From Vibrio alginolyticus NBRC 15630 = ATCC 17749 (GTDB taxonomy: Bacteria; Pseudomonadota; Gammaproteobacteria; Enterobacterales; Vibrionaceae): a stretch of DNA of 32,000 bases. Shown here piece after piece: positions 5,081-30,156 of this stretch (its first letter is position 1; the number at the start of each line of letters is the position of its first letter). The stretch lies in the NCBI RefSeq assembly GCF_000354175.2, contig NC_022349.1:1560001-1592000 (forward strand), written 5' to 3'. The notes under the pieces were generated by a model. That model did not search any database. It was not told the DNA's origin and saw nothing but the letters and a program-made list of their open reading frames with translations. Both the position numbers and the translations under genes were made by a program.

Positions 5081-5676
5081 GTAAGAAAATCTTAGTGCCA
5101 ATAGCTCCAGGCACCGAAGAAATGGAAGCCGTCACCGTTATCGACATGATGGTTCGCGCGGGTTATGACGTTACAGTAGCGAGTGCTGCTTTTGATGGCT
5201 CATTGACGATGAAAGCTTCTCGCGGAGTCACACTAACTGCCGATTGTAAGCTAGTCGATATCGCTGATGATGAGTTTGACGCCATAGCGCTTTCTGGTGG
5301 TGTTGGTGGTGCAGAAATTTTTCGTGATAGCACGGTGATGATAGAAATCCTTAAGCAGCACATCTACGAGGGAAAATTGGTCGCTGCTATCTGCGCAGCA
5401 CCGGCGTTGGTATTGCAACACCATGATCTTTTCCCACAATCACTGATGACCTGTCACCCGAGCTTTCAGTCACATATCCCGGAAGAGAAGTGGCGCAGCA
5501 AACGCGTGACCTTTGATATCAACCACAACCTGATCACCAGTCAAGGTCCGGGTACAGCTTTAGAGTTCGCGATGGAAGTAATCATTCAACTCTCAGGTAA
5601 AAAACACGCATGGTCAGTTGCTGAACCAATGATCCCTCTGCCTACTCTGCACTACCACAAGCTTGGTGAAGAATAA
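5077..5676 (+). CDS. yajL: DJ-1/PfpI family protein deglycase YajL (ThiJ)
   Basis: Close full-length similarity to E. coli YajL as I recall it (APGTEEMEAVTVID, AAICAAPALVL with the nucleophile Cys, TSQGPGTALEF). ATGA overlap with the panE stop. Confidence 0.88.
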   Translation: MSKKILVPIAPGTEEMEAVTVIDMMVRAGYDVTVASAAFDGSLTMKASRGVTLTADCKLVDIADDEFDAIALSGGVGGAEIFRDSTVMIEILKQHIYEGKLVAAICAAPALVLQHHDLFPQSLMTCHPSFQSHIPEEKWRSKRVTFDINHNLITSQGPGTALEFAMEVIIQLSGKKHAWSVAEPMIPLPTLHYHKLGEE

Positions 5677-6887
5677 TGTTTGACGTAAATGCTGTACGCG
5701 AGCAATTTCCTGCTCTAAACCAATCCGTCAACGATACGCCCTTAGTGTATCTAGATAGCGCAGCGACAACGCAAAAACCGCAATGTGTGATTAATGTCAT
5801 CAGTCATTACTACAGTGCGCAAAATGCCAATGTTCACCGTGGCAGCCATAGTTTAACGGCTAATGCCACCAGCCAATTTGAAGCGGCACGAGAACGAGTG
5901 GCAAGCTTTATTGGTGCAAACAGCTCTAAAGAGATCATTTGGACACGGGGCGCAACCGAAGCACTGAACTTAATTGCTCAAACCTACGCCCGTAGCACGT
6001 TACAACCAGGTGATGAGATCTTGATTAGCGAGATGGAGCACCACGCCAACATCGTGCCCTGGCAAATCGTGGCAGAGCAAACGGGTGCTAAAGTCATTAA
6101 AGTTCCGATGACATCAGATTGCCAGTTCGACATCAGTGCATTTGAGGCGCTTCTGTCTGACCGCTGTAAAATTGTTGCTTGCGCGCAAATAACCAACGTA
6201 ACAGGCACACGCCAACCTATCGAAAAAATCACTGAACTGGCGCACAACGTTGGCGCGGTTATTGTAGTTGATGGCGCGCAAGGCATCGTACATGAGCAAC
6301 TTGATTTATCGGCATCAGATATCGATTTCTACGTTTTCTCAGGTCACAAACTTTATGCACCAGCAGGCATTGGGGTTTTATACGGCAAGCTTAAACTTTT
6401 GGAAGCCATGCCACCATGGCACGGCGGCGGTAAAATGGTTGAACGTGTTTCTTTCGAGAAAACGACGTTTTCTGCACTTCCTGGTAAATTTGAAGCGGGC
6501 ACACCAAACGTTGCGGGCGCGATTGCTCTAGCGAAAGCCATTGAGTGGTACCAAGGTTTTAACCATCACGAAGTAGAGGATCATCTCCATGTGCTTCAGG
6601 ATAAGGCCTACCAAGCACTAAGCGCTTTGGATGACATCCATATTCTAGGCTATCAACCGAATGCCTCTGTACTGACGTTCGTCATGGACGGCGTTCATCA
6701 CCAAGACATGGCGACGCTGCTCGATCAACAAGGCATTGCGGTACGAGCAGGACACCACTGCGCTCACCCATTGATGGATGCGCTAAACGTTAAAGGCACG
6801 GTACGCGTTTCTTTTGGTATTTATAACACGGCTGAAGATGTGGATAGACTCATCGCCGCCGTAGAAAAAGCCGTCGACATGCTATAA
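5676..6887 (+). CDS. csdA: Cysteine desulfurase, class II (CsdA/SufS family)
   Basis: FPAL...VYLDSAATTQKP, the PLP-lysine context FSGHKLYAPAGIGVLYG, and the active-site loop RAGHHCAHPLM. 403 aa. The TAATG junction overlaps the yajL stop by 1 nt. The choice of CsdA over SufS is inferred from the nearby csdE and tcdA. Confidence 0.85.
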   Translation: MFDVNAVREQFPALNQSVNDTPLVYLDSAATTQKPQCVINVISHYYSAQNANVHRGSHSLTANATSQFEAARERVASFIGANSSKEIIWTRGATEALNLIAQTYARSTLQPGDEILISEMEHHANIVPWQIVAEQTGAKVIKVPMTSDCQFDISAFEALLSDRCKIVACAQITNVTGTRQPIEKITELAHNVGAVIVVDGAQGIVHEQLDLSASDIDFYVFSGHKLYAPAGIGVLYGKLKLLEAMPPWHGGGKMVERVSFEKTTFSALPGKFEAGTPNVAGAIALAKAIEWYQGFNHHEVEDHLHVLQDKAYQALSALDDIHILGYQPNASVLTFVMDGVHHQDMATLLDQQGIAVRAGHHCAHPLMDALNVKGTVRVSFGIYNTAEDVDRLIAAVEKAVDML

Positions 6888-8150: not shown

Positions 8151-8579
8151 TTACACGGCGGTTTGCTTAATCTGCTCTACAATAGCTTTCAAGCCATTAC
8201 CACGTGACGGGCTTAAATGGGAGACAAGCCCCAGTTGATCAAAATAAGCATCAATATCAAATACTTGAATTTGATCGGCCGTTTTTCCGTCATAAGCCGC
8301 CATCACCAAGGCAATCAATCCACGGACGATACGCGCATCGGAGTCCGCACAAAAATGCCAAACGCCATCTTGCTCTTGGCTCACTAACCACACCAAGCTT
8401 TCACAACCCGAAACGGTAACTTGTTCTGATTTCAGCTCTTCTGGCATTTGTGGCAGCTTTTTACCCCACTGAATAACCTGACGGTAACGATCTTCCCAGC
8501 CTTGAAGTTGCTGCATAGTCGCTACAATGTCTTCGCTGGTGATATCTGTACCAAATGGAGAAACGGGAAAATCTGTCAT
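8151..8579 (-). CDS. csdE: Cysteine desulfurase sulfur acceptor, SufE/CsdE family
   Basis: 142 aa. Conserved persulfide-acceptor Cys in VSGCESLVWL. W-x-x-R-Y-R-Q-[VL]-I motif near the N-terminus. 19 nt downstream of tcdA, with a purine-rich Shine-Dalgarno. Confidence 0.85.
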   Translation of the reverse strand: MTDFPVSPFGTDITSEDIVATMQQLQGWEDRYRQVIQWGKKLPQMPEELKSEQVTVSGCESLVWLVSQEQDGVWHFCADSDARIVRGLIALVMAAYDGKTADQIQVFDIDAYFDQLGLVSHLSPSRGNGLKAIVEQIKQTAV

Positions 8580-8598: not shown

Positions 8599-9408
8599 TT
8601 ACTTCTTATATTTTGAAATCAACTTCTCAACGATTCGCGATACCGCGACAAAGCCAAACGTTGCAGTTACAACAGTCGCCGCACCAAAACCGCTAGCACA
8701 ATCCATACGTTTTGGGCCTTCCGCTGTCGACTTCACACCACACACTGAACCGTCTGCTTGAGGATACTTCAGCTGCTCGGTTGAAAACACGCAATCAATA
8801 CCAAACTTACGAGCCGGATTCTTAGGGAAGTTATGATGACGACGCAAGGTGTCTTTGATTTTCTTCGCTAGAGGATCTTGGATCGTTTTCGTTAAATCAG
8901 CGACCATGATCTGCGTTGGGTCAACCTGACCACCAGCGCCCCCCGTAGTGATCACTTTGATCTTGTTGCTGCGGCAATACGCCAACAAAGACGCCTTCGC
9001 TTTTACGCTGTCAATCGCATCTAGCACGTAATCAAACTCTTTGCTTAAGTACTCATGTTGATTGTCTGGCGTGATGAAATCATCAATCAGGTTGACTTTA
9101 CACTCTGGGTTGATCAATTTGACACGCTCGGCCATCACTTCAATTTTGCTTTGGCCAACGGTGCCCGTCATCGCATGAATTTGGCGGTTAATATTCGTGA
9201 CACAAACATCGTCCATATCAATCAGAGTCAGCTCACCGATCCCGGTACGGGCCAGCGCTTCGACCGCCCATGAACCCACGCCACCAATACCAATAACACA
9301 AACGTGTGCAGCGCGAAGAATGTCCACTTCACTGTTGCCATAAAGACGACGAGTGCCGCCAAAGCGTTGATTGTAGCTGTCAGATGCTGGGGTATCGAGT
9401 TCACGCAT
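8599..9408 (-). CDS. tcdA: tRNA threonylcarbamoyladenosine dehydratase (ThiF/MoeB-like E1, CsdL)
   Basis: RFGGTRRLYG and the Rossmann loop VCVIGIGGVGSW. 269 aa from ATG 9408, similar to E. coli TcdA as I recall it. The ORF-track start at 9459 would place the N-terminus inside the mltA terminator. Confidence 0.85.
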   Translation of the reverse strand: MRELDTPASDSYNQRFGGTRRLYGNSEVDILRAAHVCVIGIGGVGSWAVEALARTGIGELTLIDMDDVCVTNINRQIHAMTGTVGQSKIEVMAERVKLINPECKVNLIDDFITPDNQHEYLSKEFDYVLDAIDSVKAKASLLAYCRSNKIKVITTGGAGGQVDPTQIMVADLTKTIQDPLAKKIKDTLRRHHNFPKNPARKFGIDCVFSTEQLKYPQADGSVCGVKSTAEGPKRMDCASGFGAATVVTATFGFVAVSRIVEKLISKYKK

Positions 9409-9430
9409 ATTGAAGTCCAGATGATCGATA

Positions 9431-9464
9431 GAAAAACAAAGAGTGCGATTTATACGCACTCTTT
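9431..9464 (-). terminator. Rho-independent terminator of mltA
   Basis: A 10-bp perfect stem, AAAGAGTGCG (9438-9447) with CGCACTCTTT (9455-9464), and a 7-nt loop. On the minus strand the hairpin is followed by GTTTTTC. Confidence 0.8.
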
Positions 9465-25202: not shown

Positions 25203-26177
25203 TTAAGCGTGATGAGCGTGCATCAAGCGTGGTTGAATCAACAAGTTGTTGATGTATTGTAAGGCCACATAAGAGACAACAAATGTTGCCACAATCAACT
25301 CAAGACCAGCTAAGCCGCGCACTTGTTGAACATAGTGCGCAGCCAATCCTTGCAACTCCATCCAATTCGCCATTTTAAACAGAGCCGTCGCACCGATCAC
25401 CATCGGGAAGGTAAACGCTGCATAGCCAGGGCTGAATGGCAGTCTAAGCAATTTAAAGAACGCGAGATATATGATGGCTGTCATCAATACCGCGATACCA
25501 AATAGCATAGCGATGATCACTGGTGATGGTGTCGCAGTGACCGTTAAGTACCCTGCCAATGATAGACTTGCTGGCGCTGCCATGATTGCCATTGTTGGTT
25601 TCGCTGCATCCGGAATTTCATGGGTGAACATGAAACGGTAAATCATCATCGGCAACATGATCGCGTACGCCACCATACCAAACATCAATGCACCTTGTGC
25701 CACTGGTGCTAGCATCGGGTTGCCAGAGAAAGACACATCCGCAACGATGATACCCACAGGCGGTACAAACCAACTAGGAACCATGTGGTGCAATTCAAAA
25801 TCTTTGGCGCGATGGTAAACAAAGCTCACCAAGAATACGATGTGCAAAACCACCGCAATCAGCCAAAGCGCATCGCCAGCTAATGGGTAAAAATGGCCGA
25901 GAGAGTTCGATACCACCATAGTGCCCATCGCAAATGTCGGAACCACGCTGCCCACAACCGGATGAGCAAGATCTTGTCTCAATAGATGATTATGTAGCAA
26001 AAACTTGGTTGCCAATATAGCCAACAATATGCTCGCGATACCCGCACTAATCCACTGTCCGTAGCCATGTAATTCGGCGAAGTTTTCCCAACTCCAGCCC
26101 AAGCTTGCAATACCAAGAGCCAAACCCGCCATTGGAGTTGGTGCTCCCATTACTTTTGCTTTTGTTCTTTGAATCAT
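25203..26177 (-). CDS. TDT (tellurite-resistance/dicarboxylate transporter, TehA/SLAC1-like) family membrane transporter
   Basis: A roughly 10-TM hydrophobic protein. The N-terminal MGAPTPMAGLALGIASLGWSWE is typical of TehA-like proteins. The start is taken at ATG 26177 (GAGG Shine-Dalgarno 6 nt upstream). The ORF track uses GTG 26198. Confidence 0.8.
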   Translation of the reverse strand: MIQRTKAKVMGAPTPMAGLALGIASLGWSWENFAELHGYGQWISAGIASILLAILATKFLLHNHLLRQDLAHPVVGSVVPTFAMGTMVVSNSLGHFYPLAGDALWLIAVVLHIVFLVSFVYHRAKDFELHHMVPSWFVPPVGIIVADVSFSGNPMLAPVAQGALMFGMVAYAIMLPMMIYRFMFTHEIPDAAKPTMAIMAAPASLSLAGYLTVTATPSPVIIAMLFGIAVLMTAIIYLAFFKLLRLPFSPGYAAFTFPMVIGATALFKMANWMELQGLAAHYVQQVRGLAGLELIVATFVVSYVALQYINNLLIQPRLMHAHHA

Positions 26178-26207
26178 GATGACCTCAACCAGACTCACTC
26201 TTTATGG

Positions 26208-26286: not shown

Positions 26287-27213
26287 ATGGCAAGTCACAT
26301 TTCTCTTAAACAACTGAAAGTGTTTACGACGATCACGCAGCACAAAACGCTCACAGCAGCTTCTGATAGTCTCTTTTTATCAAAAGCCGCTGTGAGCATG
26401 GCACTCTCAGAATTAGAAAAGCAGATCGGCCATCACTTGTTTGATCGTGTTAATAACCGACTGATTTTGAACCAAGAAGGTCAAAAGCTACTGCCACTGG
26501 CGGATGAATTACTCAACCGAGCCAAGGACATCGAGAGCATTTTCGATGGTGACCAAGCGCTATCGGGCCAACTTCGCATTGGTGCCAGCGACACCATTGG
26601 CAACCAAGTCGCGCCCTATTTGCTTAGCGAATTTCGTCAGCAAACGAACCATCGTTCTCAAAGCCTGTTCATTTCTAACTCCGCACAAATCTGCGACATG
26701 CTGACCGATTACGAGTTAGACATAGCCCTCATTGAAGGCAAAACACTTCACCCTGAATTGCAGTCTACCCAGTTTAGCGAAGATGAAATGTGCGTGATTT
26801 GCGCGACCAATTCCCCAGCCGCGCACGAAGGGCCAGTAAACTTAACCGAGCTAGAAAACAGTGAATGGATATTGCGAGAGGCAGGCTCTGGTTCACGCGA
26901 ATTTTTTATGCGCGTTGTCGCGCCGCGCTTGGAACATTGGCATGAAGCTTTTCAGCTCAATACCACCGAAGCGCTGATCAACTCAGTATCGGCAGGGTTA
27001 GGCTTAGGTTGCTTGTCACGTTTGTCTGCAGAACCTGCTATTCGTGACGGCCGCGTAAAACTGCTCGACATGCCTTTAGATATGAAACGTCGCTTCTGGT
27101 TACTGGTTCATAAAGAGAAATATCAAAGCCCATTGCTCAAAACGTTTATCGAATTTTGCCAAGATTGGGAGCGACCAACAAACCTTCCTTTGGCGGACAA
27201 ATCCGCAAAGTGA
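26287..27213 (+). CDS. LysR-family transcriptional regulator
   Basis: N-terminal wHTH (LKQLKVFTTITQHKTLTAASDSLFLSKAAVSMALSELEKQIGHHLFDR) plus a LysR substrate-binding domain. Divergent from the TDT transporter, the usual LTTR-target layout. Confidence 0.9.
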   Translation: MASHISLKQLKVFTTITQHKTLTAASDSLFLSKAAVSMALSELEKQIGHHLFDRVNNRLILNQEGQKLLPLADELLNRAKDIESIFDGDQALSGQLRIGASDTIGNQVAPYLLSEFRQQTNHRSQSLFISNSAQICDMLTDYELDIALIEGKTLHPELQSTQFSEDEMCVICATNSPAAHEGPVNLTELENSEWILREAGSGSREFFMRVVAPRLEHWHEAFQLNTTEALINSVSAGLGLGCLSRLSAEPAIRDGRVKLLDMPLDMKRRFWLLVHKEKYQSPLLKTFIEFCQDWERPTNLPLADKSAK

Positions 27214-27641: not shown

Positions 27642-27658
27642 GCCTCTTATTTGTTTAG

Positions 27659-27688
27659 AAAAAACGTCGCATTATGCGGCGTTTTTTT
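27659..27688 (+). terminator. Rho-independent terminator of yebG
   Basis: AAAAAACGTCGC-ATTAT-GCGGCGTTTTTTT: a 7-bp stem with one G-U pair and a T7 run. Confidence 0.85.
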
Positions 27689-27766: not shown

Positions 27767-27796
27767 TTGCGGATTAGTGTGACTTAGATCTAGTCT
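27767..27796 (+). promoter_or_regulatory. Candidate sigma-70 promoter for the riboswitch-led operon
   Basis: TTGCGG (27767-72), an 18-bp spacer, and TAGTCT (27791-96). This predicts a start near 27803, exactly where the aptamer P1 helix begins. Both hexamers are weak. Confidence 0.3.
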
Positions 27797-27802
27797 AAAT
27801 GG

Positions 27803-27867
27803 GTCCGGTGATGGGGTGCCACCGGAATCGAAAGATTCGAACCGCTGTTAAAGCTAATGACTCCTAC
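27803..27867 (+). promoter_or_regulatory. Fluoride riboswitch aptamer (crcB motif RNA)
   Basis: P1 is UCCGGUG (27804-10) paired with CACCGGA (27820-26). The loop context GAUGGGGUGC (27810-19) compares with the remembered consensus GAUGGnGUUC. The linker has AACCGC (27840-45). P3 is GCU (27844-46) paired with AGC (27852-54). The 3' conserved block is CUAAUGACUCCUAC (27854-67). The pseudoknot pairs GGGGU (27813-17) with ACUCC (27860-64), including one G-U. The only atypical feature is a 14-nt mini-hairpin (GAAUC-GAAA-GAUUC) in the P1-P3 linker. The comparison is from memory of published crcB-motif sequences and no covariance-model search was run. Confidence 0.8.
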
Positions 27868-27939
27868 AGAAACGAAAACAGGTCAGCCCTGTTGGAAGTG
27901 CTTTCGCTTATGTTGTGAAAGCGAGAGTTCTGTAGTGAG
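27861..27939 (+). promoter_or_regulatory. Anti-aptamer three-way-junction helix of the riboswitch expression platform
   Basis: CUCCUACAGAA (27861-71) pairs with UUCUGUAG-u-GAG (27928-39), giving 11 bp with one bulge. This sequesters the pseudoknot 3' strand. The helix encloses hairpins AACAGG/CCUGUU (27877-82/27888-93) and GCUUUC/GAAAGC (27900-05/27917-22). No U-tract follows. Confidence 0.55.
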
Positions 27940-28132
27940 CAATTCAACTCTTCTCCAACCCCGCTCCTGTTTTCTCAAAAATTAAAAAGATATCCAAAAT
28001 AGTTGTTAACTCAACAAGGCGACAAACGCATGAACCTCCTGAACATAGTTTTCTATTTGATGGAGCGAATAAGAGCAGTCAACGCCGTTGAGACTGACAA
28101 ATAGGCTGGATATCGTACACTGGGAAAACATT

Positions 28133-28825
28133 ATGCAATATTCACACGAAATCCAATCAATGTGCCCGATTCAACGCGGCGAGCTTCATGCATCTGCACC
28201 GATCCCTGTTGAAGGCGCAATGATCAATCCAAAAGACGTTATCGCGATTTCTGGTCTTAGCCACGGAGTTGGCGCTTGTGCTCCTCAACAAGGCGCAGCA
28301 AAACTGACCCTTAACGTCAAAAACGGCATCATCGAAGAAGCTTTGATCGAAACGATCGGCTGTTCAGGCATGACTCAATCAGCAGCGATGGCCGCAGAAA
28401 TCCTAACAGGCAAAACCATTCTTGAAGCACTGAATACCGACTTGGTATGTGATGCTATTAACGTCGCGATGCGCGAAATCTTCCTTCAATTTGTTTACGG
28501 TCGTACGCAATCTGCTTTCTCTGAAGGCGGCTTAGAAATTGGTGCGGCATTGGAAGATCTTGGTCAAACTCAACGCAGCCAAGTGGGTACTAGCTACTCA
28601 ACCAAAGCAAAAGGCGTGCGTTACATGGAGTTGGCTGAAGGCTATGTAACAAAACTCGCGCTAGACGAAAACAAAGAAGTGATTGGTTACCAATATCTCA
28701 ACCTCGGCAAGATGATGAAAGCCATCAACGAAGGCGTATCTGCTGCAGAAGCCGCAGACAAAGCGACGGGGACTTACGGTCGTTTTGACGAAGCCGTAAC
28801 TACCATCAACCCACGCCAACAATAA
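28133..28825 (+). CDS. IscU/NifU N-terminal-domain-like putative Fe-S/metal scaffold protein
   Basis: Three Cys in IscU-like spacing and context: GVGACAPQQG, ETIGCSGMTQSAAMAAE, and DLVCDAIN after GKTILEALN. 230 aa from ATG 28133 (GGGA 8 nt upstream). The ORF-track TTG 28088 start is less likely. Confidence 0.7.
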   Translation: MQYSHEIQSMCPIQRGELHASAPIPVEGAMINPKDVIAISGLSHGVGACAPQQGAAKLTLNVKNGIIEEALIETIGCSGMTQSAAMAAEILTGKTILEALNTDLVCDAINVAMREIFLQFVYGRTQSAFSEGGLEIGAALEDLGQTQRSQVGTSYSTKAKGVRYMELAEGYVTKLALDENKEVIGYQYLNLGKMMKAINEGVSAAEAADKATGTYGRFDEAVTTINPRQQ

Positions 28826-28848: not shown

Positions 28849-29832
28849 ATGAACACTCCAATTACTGAATCTGTACGTCGCACATTAGACGAAATGCAAC
28901 TTTCTTCTCTGGAAGAGGCTTACCAATACTGTATGGATCGTGGTATCGACCCTAAAGCACTAGTGATGGACACTCAACCTATCGCGTTTGAAAGCGCTGC
29001 CGATGCCTACACGCTAGGCACTGCTTTGGCGATTTTCCGCGTAGCAAAAACAGCTGAAGAAGCTGCAAACATCATCGGTGAAGGCCTTCAAGCCTGCACA
29101 AAACCAGGCAGCGTCGCAGAACAACGCCGAGTGGGTATCGGTCACGGTGCATTGGCGGCTCGTCTATTGAATGAAGAAAGTGGCTGTTTCGCTTTCCTTG
29201 CGGGCCATGAGTCATTCGCAGCGGCAGAAGGCGCTATCAAAATCGCATTGAACGTGAACAAGTCACGAAAAAATCCGTTGAAAGTTATCCTAAATGGCTT
29301 GGGTAAAGACGCCGCTTACCTAATCTCACGCATCAATGGTTTCACTTACGTACGCACTCAGTACAACTACCAAACTGGTGAGTTAGTGGAAGTAGAACGT
29401 CGCCGTTTCTCCCAAGGTCCACGTGGTGAGATCCTTTGCTACGGTGCAGACGATGTACGTGAAGGCGTGGCTATTATGCATAAAGAACAAGTGGACGTGA
29501 GTATCACTGGTAACTCGACTAACCCGACTCGCTTCCAGCACCCAGTTGCCGGTATCTACAAAGCAGAGCGTAACCGTGAAGGCATGCCTTACTTCTCTGT
29601 GGCATCAGGCGGTGGTACTGGTCGTACTCTACACCCAGATAACGTGGCGGCAGGCCCTGCCTCTTACGGCATGACAGACACTATGGGTCGCATGCACGCC
29701 GATGCGCAATTCGCGGGTAGCTCTTCAGTACCAGCACACGTAGCGATGATGGGCTTTATCGGTATGGGCAACAATCCAATGGTAGGTGCAACTGTTGCAC
29801 TTGCTGTGGAGGTCGGTGAGCTAAGCCTCTAA
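28849..29832 (+). CDS. GGGtGRT-motif protein, function unknown
   Basis: Contains the family-defining VASGGGTGRTLHPDNV. 327 aa. Strong AAGAGGAAAGAG Shine-Dalgarno, 23 nt after the upstream stop, and native-looking codon usage. The family name is from memory. Confidence 0.8.
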   Translation: MNTPITESVRRTLDEMQLSSLEEAYQYCMDRGIDPKALVMDTQPIAFESAADAYTLGTALAIFRVAKTAEEAANIIGEGLQACTKPGSVAEQRRVGIGHGALAARLLNEESGCFAFLAGHESFAAAEGAIKIALNVNKSRKNPLKVILNGLGKDAAYLISRINGFTYVRTQYNYQTGELVEVERRRFSQGPRGEILCYGADDVREGVAIMHKEQVDVSITGNSTNPTRFQHPVAGIYKAERNREGMPYFSVASGGGTGRTLHPDNVAAGPASYGMTDTMGRMHADAQFAGSSSVPAHVAMMGFIGMGNNPMVGATVALAVEVGELSL

Positions 29833-29885
29833 GTCGATTTATCGCTTTACTATCCAAAGCCAGTAAATCCAACAAACCCAGTGTA

Positions 29886-29918
29886 GGGGGAGTGACTTCG
29901 GTCCTCCCCTTATTTTTT
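29886..29918 (+). terminator. Rho-independent terminator of the IscU-like/GGGtGRT operon
   Basis: GGGGGAGUGAC-UUCG-GUCCUCCCC (one bulged U, UUCG tetraloop) followed by UUAUUUUUU. Confidence 0.88.
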
Positions 29919-30156
29919 GCTATGCCCCCTTCTCCAACTTCACTTTGTCTTTACCCCAAACCGGTCTGAGAAGGCTTTTGCGACACATTTCTCATCAGAC
30001 AAACATATCTCTAAAAAGACAAAAGGTATCCATCTACGGACTTTCTCCATTTCCCCTCTTTAAACTCCCGAACACTCTCTTTATGATGACTGACAACTTA
30101 ATTATTTCTTGTCAGTGAACAGACGAGACACAAGACTCAACACATGGAGATCAACT

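What the first reader, a model, noticed from the sequence alone, without database searches (positions are those of the whole stretch)
27803..27867. crcB-motif fluoride riboswitch aptamer with no exporter gene nearby
The sequence folds into the compact fluoride-aptamer architecture and carries its conserved nucleotides:
- P1 is 27804-10 paired with 27820-26, closing the loop AUGGGGUGC.
- The linker contains AACCGC.
- P3 is a 3-bp helix (27844-46 with 27852-54).
- The 3' block is CUAAUGACUCCUAC.
- The ACUCC of that block (27860-64) can pair with the loop GGGGU (27813-17) as the pseudoknot.

It sits just after a candidate promoter and about 265 nt upstream of the first start codon of an operon with no transporter. 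Neither crcB nor eriC-F is in the window. One deviation from the textbook motif is a GNRA-capped mini-hairpin (27825-27838) inserted in the P1-P3 linker.
Basis: partly seen in the sequence, partly recalled or inferred. Interest (0 to 1): 0.8.

Follow-up and report, generated by a model that had tools for sequence, protein, structure and literature searches.

The report
Known fluoride riboswitch, orphan Fe-S operon
This is a genuine fluoride-sensing RNA switch in a Vibrio genome, already present in the 2010 alignment that defined the class, and its only unusual feature is that it controls two conserved genes of unknown function instead of a fluoride exporter.

Summary
Window 27798-27873 (+) matches the Rfam fluoride riboswitch model RF01734 over its full length (51.9 bits, gathering score 34, E 8e-12).

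The same aptamer sits upstream of the same two genes in all 71 assessable gammaproteobacterial loci (Vibrio, Aliivibrio, Photobacterium, Moritella, Psychromonas, Shewanella). The genes encode an IscU-like protein with four invariant cysteines and a GGGtGRT protein (PF14057). Compensatory changes support P1, P3 and the mini-hairpin.

It is not new. The near-identical orthologue from Vibrio ATCC BAA-1116 (NC_009783.1/3337036-3337110), mini-hairpin included, is in the crcB-motif alignment of Weinberg et al. 2010. That paper also lists 'iscU' among the associated genes. A fluoride riboswitch without an exporter nearby is common.

What I add:
- A likely translational ON mechanism, built from three mutually exclusive helices that end in sequestration of the Shine-Dalgarno sequence.
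- The 265-nt leader is long only because a 127-nt palindrome was inserted in a hairpin loop.
- The riboswitch-gene link is lineage-specific. It is absent from 14 other loci carrying the pair: Clostridia, Bacteroidota, and a divergent Psychromonas and an invertebrate-metagenome copy.

The function of the gene pair remains unknown.

The parts
27658..27688 (+). Intrinsic terminator of the upstream gene yebG. It marks the 5' boundary of the riboswitch transcription unit.
   Evidence: RNAfold gives a 14-bp hairpin that takes the flanking A and U runs into the stem, -16.9 kcal/mol. YebG was identified by Pfam and NCBIfam.
27767..27796 (+). Putative sigma-70 promoter: -35 TTGCGG (27767-72), an 18-nt spacer, -10 TAGTCT (27791-96). 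It contains a conserved TGTGA-N6-TCTA motif (27778-93). The predicted transcription start is about 27802-04, at the 5' edge of the aptamer.
   Evidence: TTG and TAnnnT are conserved across the Harveyi, Splendidus and many other clades. The site is below the threshold of the consensus scan. Inferred, not shown.
27798..27873 (+). Fluoride riboswitch aptamer (crcB motif, RF01734).
   Evidence: Rfam 51.9 bits against a gathering score of 34, E 8.4e-12, full model. My own covariance model gives 77.4 bits.
27804..27826 (+). P1 helix with the loop AUGGGGUGC. The conserved core is 27806-10 with 27820-24. The loop residues GGGGU (27813-17) form the 5' strand of the pseudoknot.
   Evidence: Sequence. 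Four pairs are invariant and the fifth pair covaries AU/CG.
27825..27838 (+). Optional hairpin inserted between P1 and the AACCGC linker (GAAUC-GAAA-GAUUC).
   Evidence: All five of its pairs show changes on both sides across clades, with 95% of cells paired. It is 14-16 nt in about 35 loci, 63 nt in L039, and replaced by a 5-nt linker in 33 loci. It is drawn as an insertion in the 2010 alignment.
27844..27854 (+). P3 helix, GCU/AGC with loop GUUAA.
   Evidence: Rfam alignment. The third pair covaries CG/UA/AU.
27859..27873 (+). Element P: the aptamer 3' tail GACUCCUACAGAAAC. It holds the 3' strand of the pseudoknot (ACUCC, 27860-64) and is the target of the anti-aptamer strand C.
   Evidence: Coordinates. 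It pairs with C in the unconstrained MFE.
27874..27883 (+). Element A: anti-sequestor GAAAACAGGU. Its sequence mimics the ribosome-binding region. It can pair locally with A' (27888-95) or at long range with D.
   Evidence: A:D is 94% paired over 13 pairs, two of them with changes on both sides. A:D forms in the window when the pseudoknot strands are blocked.
27925..27940 (+). Element C: anti-aptamer strand GAGUUCUGUAGUGAGC, complementary to P.
   Evidence: P:C is 91.5% paired, with three pairs changed on both sides (AU to UA). It is present in the MFE of the window and, in most of the 66 leaders, 10-14 tail-region nucleotides pair downstream (mean 10.7).
27964..27976 (+). Element D: sequestor (anti-Shine-Dalgarno) CUCCUGUUUUCUC. 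It is complementary both to A and to E.
27989..28115 (+). 127-nt palindromic insertion in the loop of the D:E hairpin. It folds on itself.
   Evidence: Present in the window and L002-L004, partly in L007, and absent in L001, L005 and L006. Self-fold -35.1 kcal/mol. Five metagenome matches are all the same orthologous leader.
28122..28135 (+). Element E: the Shine-Dalgarno region GGGAAAAC (28122-29) and the start codon ATG (28133-35).
   Evidence: D:E is 93.8% paired and one pair covaries. The Shine-Dalgarno region is paired in the free MFE of 63 of 66 leaders.
28133..28825 (+). Gene 1: IscU/NifU-N-like protein, 230 aa, annotated by NCBI as an 'iron-sulfur cluster assembly scaffold protein'. 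It has four invariant Cys (11, 49, 77, 106) and two invariant His.
   Evidence: PF01592 25 bits, just above its cut-off. IscU chains in the PDB match at E 3e-5. Invariant residues. Annotation names.
28849..29832 (+). Gene 2: GGGtGRT protein (PF14057), function unknown.
   Evidence: 553.7 bits. No PDB relative by sequence or by profile. No significant fold match for the AF2 model, which has pTM 0.81.
29883..29922 (+). Intrinsic terminator ending the two-gene operon (GGGGGAG...CUCCCC followed by UUAUUUUUU).
   Evidence: RNAfold. The simple pattern scan missed it.

Best explanation
A bona fide fluoride (crcB-motif) riboswitch heads a bicistronic operon, in this order: promoter, aptamer, expression platform, IscU-like gene, GGGtGRT gene, terminator.

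The most likely mechanism is a translational ON switch built from three mutually exclusive helices.
- Without fluoride: strand C (27925-40) invades the aptamer's 3' tail P (27859-73), which includes the 3' strand of the pseudoknot. The anti-sequestor A (27874-83) is then trapped inside the P:C loop. The sequestor D (27964-76) pairs with the Shine-Dalgarno region E (28122-29) and blocks initiation.
- With fluoride and Mg2+: the pseudoknot holds P, so C stays unpaired. A pairs with D, which is transcribed before E. The Shine-Dalgarno sequence stays open and both genes are translated.

What is shown: the identity of the aptamer, its conservation, the complementarities and their covariation, and the thermodynamic predictions. 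What is inferred: fluoride binding, the ON logic, the steric exclusion of A:D by P:C, and the promoter.

Confidence is about 0.97 that this is a fluoride-class aptamer and about 0.6 for the specific relay.
For: Aptamer:
- Rfam RF01734, 51.9 bits, E 8e-12.
- Exactly one copy at the same place in the window and in 71 gammaproteobacterial loci.
- Covariation in P1, P3 and the insert hairpin; pseudoknot changes are only G-U to A-U or U-A to U-G.
- The orthologue is in the founding crcB alignment.

Platform:
- The elements P, A, C, D and E are conserved in the same order in 66 distinct leaders despite large length differences.
- P:C, D:E and A:D are 91-94% paired in register, against 53% or less for whole structures slid by 1-3 columns. 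Pairs at the variable ends of these helices change on both sides.
- The window's MFE (-94.0 kcal/mol) contains P:C and D:E. Blocking the two pseudoknot strands gives P1 plus A:D and a mostly free Shine-Dalgarno sequence (-89.6).
- The Shine-Dalgarno region is paired in the free MFE of 63 of 66 leaders.
- In most genera E is a canonical AGGA or GAGG located 7-8 nt before the ATG.
- No intrinsic terminator lies between the aptamer and the ATG on the + strand.

Operon: a 23-nt gap with a Shine-Dalgarno sequence separates the two genes, and there is a terminator after gene 2.
Against: - No experiment was done: fluoride binding and induction are untested for this RNA.
- In the pseudoknot-blocked MFE, D moves onto A in only about half of the leaders (31 of 66). 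The switch therefore depends on kinetics or on tertiary energy that the model lacks.
- The cores of A:D and D:E (GAAAAC/GUUUUC) are invariant, so they say nothing about pairing. The sequences are related, so the shuffle controls overstate significance.
- The exclusion of A:D by P:C rests on a steric argument, not on a computation.
- Rho-dependent termination coupled to translation cannot be separated from the proposed mechanism.
Confidence: 0.8

Rival explanations
1. Same aptamer, but control acts mainly on transcription: premature termination in the long leader, Rho-dependent or by an unusual intrinsic terminator that uses the U-tract of D. Shine-Dalgarno sequestration would then be secondary.
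For: D ends in a conserved U-tract (CCUGUUUUCYC) that is preceded by sequence able to form a long-range stem with A. Many fluoride riboswitches are transcriptional (Weinberg 2010). An untranslated 265-nt leader would be a natural target for Rho (inference).
Against: The U-tract itself lies inside both the A:D and the D:E helices. A:D forms in the predicted ligand-bound state, so a terminator there would give OFF logic, the opposite of the ON logic reported for this class. The scan finds no terminator-like site on the + strand between 27874 and 28132. E coincides with the Shine-Dalgarno sequence in every genus.
Confidence: 0.15
2. A variant of the fluoride aptamer fold with altered ligand specificity, which would explain the lack of any fluoride-related gene downstream.
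For: The downstream genes have no known link to fluoride. Variant riboswitches with changed specificity exist in other classes, for example the FMN variants listed.
Against: Every consensus block of RF01734 is present without substitution and is invariant in 59 distinct orthologues. The only deviations are peripheral insertions. The sequence was part of the alignment from which the class was defined.
Confidence: 0.03
3. A chance match or a decaying relic with no function.
For: None beyond the absence of an exporter.
Against: E 8e-12. The aptamer is retained at the same position in 71 of 71 assessable loci across six genera, with compensatory changes.
Confidence: 0.01

Closest known systems
crcB-motif / fluoride riboswitch class (Rfam RF01734; Weinberg et al. 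2010 Genome Biol 11:R31; Baker et al. 2012 Science 335:233)
   Same: Full-length match to the model. It has the same P1, linker AACCGC, P3, GAUGACUCCUAC tail and pseudoknot, and it lies in a 5' UTR on the coding strand. The orthologue NC_009783.1/3337036-3337110 is a row of the 2010 alignment.
   Different: Nothing in the aptamer core differs. The peripheral differences are an optional 14-nt hairpin after P1 and a 3-bp P3.
Bacillus cereus crcB fluoride riboswitch (transcriptional ON; the archetype of folding studies, e.g. PMC8752731, PMC11077080)
   Same: A downstream strand competes for the 3' side of the pseudoknot, and fluoride locks the pseudoknot against that invasion.
   Different: In B. 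cereus the invading strand completes an intrinsic terminator that directly overlaps the aptamer. Here the invading strand C lies about 55 nt downstream and is not followed by a U-tract. The signal is passed on through a second pair of competing helices (A:D against D:E) to the ribosome-binding site.
Pseudomonas syringae eriC-F fluoride riboswitch (translational; Baker et al. 2012, from my own knowledge, paper not held in the library)
   Same: Control is predicted at the ribosome-binding site of a Gammaproteobacterium.
   Different: That riboswitch regulates a CLC-F exporter with a short platform. This one regulates a non-transport operon through a platform of 138-267 nt with a three-helix relay.
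Non-exporter members of the fluoride riboswitch regulon (enolase, pyrophosphatase, Na+/H+ antiporters, formate hydrogen lyase, HAD phosphatases; review PMC11139923)
   Same: The riboswitch controls something other than an exporter. 'iscU' was already listed in 2010 among genes associated with crcB RNAs.
   Different: For those genes a rationale exists, such as a fluoride-inhibited enzyme or pH or phosphate homeostasis. For the IscU-like/GGGtGRT pair no function is known, and the 2024 review does not mention it.

Membership tests
Fluoride riboswitch (RF01734, crcB motif) | Covariance-model score at or above the curated gathering score | tested here: met
   51.9 bits against 34, E 8.4e-12, model positions 1-64 of 64.
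Fluoride riboswitch (RF01734, crcB motif) | P1 helix closing a loop that contains GAUGGnGU | tested here: met
   27804-10 with 27820-26, loop AUGGGGUGC. Four pairs are invariant and the fifth covaries in 27 orthologues.
   GCU/AGC at 27844-46 with 27852-54. It has three pairs where the model has four. The third pair covaries CG/UA/AU.
Fluoride riboswitch (RF01734, crcB motif) | Pseudoknot between the P1 loop and the 3' tail (GGnGU with ACUCC) | tested here: met
   27813-17 with 27860-64, 100% paired in 27 orthologues. The only changes are G-U to A-U and U-A to U-G, with no double changes, so the pseudoknot is compatible with the data but not proven by covariation.
Fluoride riboswitch (RF01734, crcB motif) | Conserved 3' block GAUGACUCCUAC | tested here: met
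   AAUGACUCCUAC at 27856-67. G or A at the first position varies among orthologues.
Fluoride riboswitch (RF01734, crcB motif) | Location in the 5' UTR of the regulated gene, with an expression platform that overlaps the aptamer's 3' end | tested here: met
   It lies upstream of ATG 28133 on the same strand. Strand C pairs with the aptamer tail.
Fluoride riboswitch (RF01734, crcB motif) | Selective binding of fluoride with Mg2+ | not testable with these tools
   Needs in-line probing or ITC.
Fluoride riboswitch (RF01734, crcB motif) | Fluoride-dependent increase in expression of the downstream gene | not testable with these tools
   Needs reporter assays or RNA-seq with NaF. Only thermodynamic predictions are available.
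IscU/NifU-N Fe-S scaffold (PF01592), for gene 1 | Pfam score above the cut-off and three cluster-ligand cysteines | tested here: inconclusive
   25 bits against a cut-off of 22, covering only residues 32-102. The NCBIfam IscU, NifU and SufU models are far below their cut-offs. Cys49, Cys77 and Cys106 plus an extra Cys11 are invariant. There is a 120-residue C-terminal extension with no family. The AF2 model is poor, with pLDDT 64.
GGGtGRT protein family (PF14057), for gene 2 | Full-length Pfam match and the GGGTGRT motif | tested here: met
   553.7 bits, positions 9-326 of 327. The GGGTGRT motif at residues 254-260 is invariant.

The most novel reading that the evidence does not exclude
The IscU-like/GGGtGRT pair may be a dedicated fluoride-stress module, and in Harveyi-clade vibrios the only riboswitch-controlled one. 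It could be, for example, a two-subunit Fe-S enzyme that replaces or repairs a fluoride-sensitive metal-dependent step.

If so, the riboswitch would give the first functional handle on PF14057. This orphan family is reported in rumen, chicken-caecum and human-gut metaproteome or expression studies (titles only). In Bacteroides thetaiotaomicron the pair is 11- to 13-fold lower in iron deficiency, and transposon insertions in it weaken glucose-dependent silencing.

A smaller novel point is the three-helix relay platform, which I did not find described for this class.
Probability: 0.3. Interest if true: 0.6.

Novelty: already known. Interest (0 to 1): 0.28.

Why it matters
As a riboswitch it adds nothing. 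The class, this orthologue and the 'iscU' association have been on record since 2010.

Its value is as a pointer. A ligand-defined switch ties an uncharacterised two-gene module to fluoride stress in marine Gammaproteobacteria. The module is an IscU-like protein with four invariant cysteines plus a GGGtGRT protein. The IscU-like protein is 72-73% identical, and the GGGtGRT protein about 66% identical, between Vibrio and Clostridia.

In the 2010 alignment this is the only crcB RNA from the two chromosomes of Vibrio ATCC BAA-1116, so the pair may be the main regulated fluoride response there. Testing NaF sensitivity of deletion mutants would be cheap and could assign a first phenotype to PF14057.

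The leader also offers a clean natural example of an aptamer signal relayed through two successive strand competitions to a ribosome-binding site. It tolerates a 127-nt insertion in a hairpin loop.

Tried and rejected
- **IscU-like protein.** The AF2 model was too poor for a fold search (pLDDT 64).
- **Is the 127-nt insertion a dispersed MITE?** There are no other copies in the window or in the first 80 loci. All five metagenome matches are the same leader. The idea is rejected as far as these data reach. The metagenome pattern was exact-match only.
- **Riboswitch upstream of the gene pair in other phyla.** None was found in eight Clostridia MAGs, Flammeovirga, gut Clostridia, Niameybacter, a divergent Psychromonas copy or an invertebrate-metagenome contig.
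- **Second riboswitch in L040.** A 17.6-bit hit from my own covariance model was not confirmed by Rfam.
- **Link to the neighbouring SLAC1/TehA-like anion channel (25203-26198).** Synteny holds only in the Harveyi and Splendidus clades, so I rejected a functional link.
- **Leader peptide.** The 42-aa ORF at 27857-27985 starts at the aptamer's conserved AUG. The leaders differ by indels, so it is not conserved.
- **Literature.** No held paper links 'fluoride riboswitch' with NifU, and none of the GGGtGRT papers listed concerns fluoride. Baker et al. 2012 is not held.
- **My first regex** missed every locus because of an off-by-one in the tail. It was corrected.

Full report
**Observation.**
- P1: UCCGGUG (27804-10) pairs with CACCGGA (27820-26) around the loop AUGGGGUGC.
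- Linker: AACCGC (27840-45).
- P3: GCU (27844-46) pairs with AGC (27852-54).
- Tail: CUAAUGACUCCUAC (27854-67).
- Pseudoknot: ACUCC (27860-64) is complementary to the loop GGGGU (27813-17).
- GNRA hairpin: GAAUC-GAAA-GAUUC (27825-38).

A scan of the whole window against all 4227 Rfam families returns a single hit: RF01734 (Fluoride) at 27798-27873 on the + strand. It scores 51.9 bits against a gathering score of 34, with E 8.4e-12, covers the full model, and treats the hairpin as a 13-nt insertion.

Two refinements apply. The 7-bp P1 and the hairpin compete for nucleotides 27825-26. Only a 5-bp P1 is conserved in relatives.

**Surroundings.** The window comes from a Harveyi-clade Vibrio. Its GGGtGRT protein is 99% identical to those of V. 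owensii and V. rotiferianus.

Upstream lie a SLAC1/TehA-like channel gene (-), a LysR-type regulator and yebG. yebG ends in a strong intrinsic terminator at 27658-88.

A weak but conserved promoter-like pair follows: TTGCGG at 27767-72 and TAGTCT at 27791-96. It falls below the consensus scan threshold. It would start transcription at the 5' edge of the aptamer.

Downstream lie two genes:
- a 230-aa IscU/NifU-N-like gene (28133-28825; PF01592 at 25 bits, just above its cut-off);
- 23 nt later, with its own Shine-Dalgarno sequence, a GGGtGRT gene (28849-29832; PF14057, 553.7 bits).

A GC-rich terminator at 29883-29922 closes the operon, and dapD follows.

No CrcB or CLC domain occurs among the scanned window ORFs of at least 110 aa. 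Four ORFs nested in larger genes were not scanned. A tblastn with E. coli CrcB found nothing in the window or in any related locus.

**Comparative evidence for the aptamer.** A scan of one genome per species returned 80 loci that encode close relatives of the GGGtGRT protein. In all of them the IscU-like gene lies immediately upstream.
- A motif search, Rfam on a subset and a covariance model built here agree. The window and 71 of 72 gammaproteobacterial loci each carry exactly one aptamer at the same position (55-80 bits). The genera are Vibrio, Aliivibrio, Photobacterium, Moritella, Psychromonas and Shewanella.
- The one exception, L054, is a contig that ends before the leader.
- On 27 distinct aptamers the fifth P1 pair covaries AU/CG and the third P3 pair covaries CG/UA/AU.
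- All five pairs of the inserted hairpin change on both sides.
- The pseudoknot is 100% paired, with only G-U to A-U and U-A to U-G changes.
- Overall, 94.9% of cells are paired in register, against 55% or less when the 3' partners are slid.

The hairpin is optional. It is 14-16 nt in the Harveyi, Splendidus and a few other clades, 63 nt in Photobacterium kagoshimensis, and replaced by a 5-nt linker in 33 loci.

**Expression platform.** The 66 distinct leaders range from 105 to 267 nt, yet all keep the same ordered elements:

| Element | Window coordinates | Sequence | Role |
|---|---|---|---|
| P | 27859-73 | GACUCCUACAGAAAC | aptamer 3' tail |
| A | 27874-83 | GAAAACAGGU | anti-sequestor |
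| A' and a variable hairpin | 27888-95 and after | | local partner of A |
| C | 27925-40 | GAGUUCUGUAGUGAGC | complement of P |
| D | 27964-76 | CUCCUGUUUUCUC | complement of both A and E |
| E | 28122-29 | GGGAAAAC (AGGAAAAC or GAGGAAAAC in most genera) | Shine-Dalgarno region, just before the ATG |

On an alignment of 21 short leaders, the three helices behave as follows:
- P:C is 91.5% paired, with three pairs changed on both sides.
- D:E is 93.8% paired, with one such pair.
- A:D is 94.1% paired, with two such pairs.
- The two whole structures are 94.7-97.0% paired in register, against 41-58% when slid.

The window's unconstrained MFE (-94.0 kcal/mol) contains P:C and D:E, with the Shine-Dalgarno sequence buried. 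When the two pseudoknot strands are made unavailable, mimicking the ligand-bound aptamer, the MFE (-89.6) has P1, A:D and a largely open Shine-Dalgarno region.

Across the 66 leaders the free MFE pairs the Shine-Dalgarno region in 63. It also pairs, on average, 10.7 tail nucleotides with a downstream strand. The blocked MFE moves D onto A in about half of them.

I therefore propose a translational ON switch. Without fluoride, C opens the aptamer, A is confined inside the P:C loop, and D sequesters the Shine-Dalgarno sequence. With fluoride the pseudoknot protects P, and A captures D before E is transcribed.

The complementarities and covariation are shown. The ON logic, the steric exclusion and the kinetic order are inferred. 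Rho-dependent termination in the untranslated leader cannot be excluded.

**Why the leader is 265 nt.** Alignment with the closest relatives shows a 127-nt insertion (27989-28115) between D and E. It is present in the window, V. rotiferianus, V. harveyi and one other strain. A shorter version is found in V. rhodolitus. It is absent in V. owensii and two others, whose leaders are 138-139 nt.

The insertion is an imperfect palindrome (-35.1 kcal/mol). It folds on itself in both predicted states, so D and E stay close in space. I found no other copies, and five metagenome matches are all the same leader. Other clades carry unrelated insertions at the same place.

**What it controls.** The gene pair is strikingly conserved. 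The IscU-like protein is 72-73% identical between Vibrio and Clostridia and has four invariant cysteines and two invariant histidines.

The GGGtGRT protein has no relative of known structure, by sequence, by profile or by fold.

The literature held here gives only indirect hints. In B. thetaiotaomicron the pair BT0173-4 is listed at -11 to -12.8 fold in the iron-deficiency stimulon. Transposon insertions in it double the Roc protein on glucose, in the same screen that recovered phosphofructokinase. In C. pasteurianum the protein appears in a table of proteins that change with iron availability.

The riboswitch link is lineage-specific. No aptamer precedes the pair in:
- eight Clostridia MAGs;
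- Flammeovirga;
- three gut Clostridia loci;
- Niameybacter;
- a divergent Psychromonas copy;
- an invertebrate-metagenome contig

.

Neighbouring genes are conserved only within the Harveyi and Splendidus clades. The riboswitch and the two genes therefore travel as one unit.

**Comparison with what is known.** This is a member of RF01734 by every feature that can be tested in silico. It is also already catalogued. The supplementary crcB-motif alignments of Weinberg et al. 2010 contain NC_009783.1/3337036-3337110. That row is near-identical to the window's aptamer, with GAAUC-GAAA-GAUUC drawn as an insertion. They also contain the Aliivibrio fischeri orthologue NC_006841.2/1258800-1258735.

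The same paper's supplement names 'iscU' among genes associated with crcB RNAs. In that alignment file NC_009783 appears once and NC_009784 not at all. This suggests that it is the only crcB RNA in that genome.

A 2024 review notes that only about 15% of Fluc and about 30% of CLC-F exporters are riboswitch-controlled, and that many non-exporter genes are. It does not mention this pair. So 'no exporter nearby' is ordinary.

**Verdict.** Novelty: already known.

The residual interest is twofold. A ligand-defined switch points to a fluoride-related role for an orphan, very conserved Fe-S-type gene pair. The leader also shows a tidy two-stage strand-competition relay. Interest 0.28.

Noticed in passing
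window 27989-28115: A 127-nt imperfect palindrome (self-fold -35.1 kcal/mol) is inserted in the loop of the Shine-Dalgarno-sequestering hairpin. It is present in only part of the Harveyi clade, and no other copies were found. Other clades (L018, L026, L028, L066) carry unrelated insertions at the same site, so this loop looks like a hotspot for insertions.
   Followed up: yes
window 27778-27793; same position in most loci: A conserved TGTGA-N6-TCTA(A/G) motif, including the palindrome AGATCT, lies between the putative -35 and -10 elements. It is conserved across many Vibrio clades and genera. It could be the site of a protein regulator (the TGTGA half-site resembles CRP/FNR-type sites) acting on top of the riboswitch. 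It is too close to the predicted transcription start for class II activation.
   Followed up: partly
window 28133-28825 and 28849-29832; L073-L088: The IscU-like/GGGtGRT pair is adjacent and in the same order in Gammaproteobacteria, Clostridia and Bacteroidota. The IscU-like protein is 72-75% identical across these phyla and the GGGtGRT protein about 66-73%. This is unusually high for such distant groups and suggests either strong constraint or horizontal transfer. The IscU-like protein has a fourth invariant cysteine (Cys11) and a 120-residue C-terminal extension with no family.
   Followed up: partly
L039 3007-3128; L047 3015-3111: Two orthologous aptamers carry large insertions and still pass the Rfam gathering score. 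L039 has a 63-nt hairpin at the same P1-linker site as the window's mini-hairpin. L047 has an enlarged P3 loop or stem of about 35 nt.
   Followed up: partly
window 25203-26198 (-) and 26287-27213 (+): A SLAC1/TehA-family anion-channel gene is divergently paired with a LysR/YeiE-like regulator, 1.6 kb upstream of the riboswitch. Synteny with the riboswitch operon holds only in the Harveyi and Splendidus clades, so a functional link is unlikely.
   Followed up: yes
window 5676-6887 (+), 8151-8579 (-), 8599-9459 (-): There is a class-V aminotransferase (cysteine desulfurase-like), a SufE-domain protein and a ThiF-family protein (names of the CsdA/CsdE/TcdA kind are my inference from the Pfam domains). 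This is a sulfur-transfer set 20 kb from the IscU-like gene. No link was examined.
   Followed up: no
window 27857-27985 (+): A 42-codon ORF starts at the conserved AUG inside the aptamer tail (AAUGACUCC). The leaders differ by many indels, so it is not conserved and is unlikely to be a leader peptide.
   Followed up: partly
L032 1465-2367 (-); L033 107-188 (-): In Moritella the riboswitch operon lies next to a tandem array of five identical-scoring tRNA genes spaced about 200 nt apart.
   Followed up: no
L040 2118-2558 (+): A below-threshold match to the cspA thermoregulator (54.3 bits against a gathering score of 78, E 5e-12) lies just downstream of the GGGtGRT gene in a Psychromonas MAG.
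   Followed up: no
window 27877-27893 (-): The terminator scan calls a minus-strand terminator here. It is simply the A:A' hairpin of the platform, preceded on the + strand by an A-run. No minus-strand gene ends nearby.
   Followed up: yes
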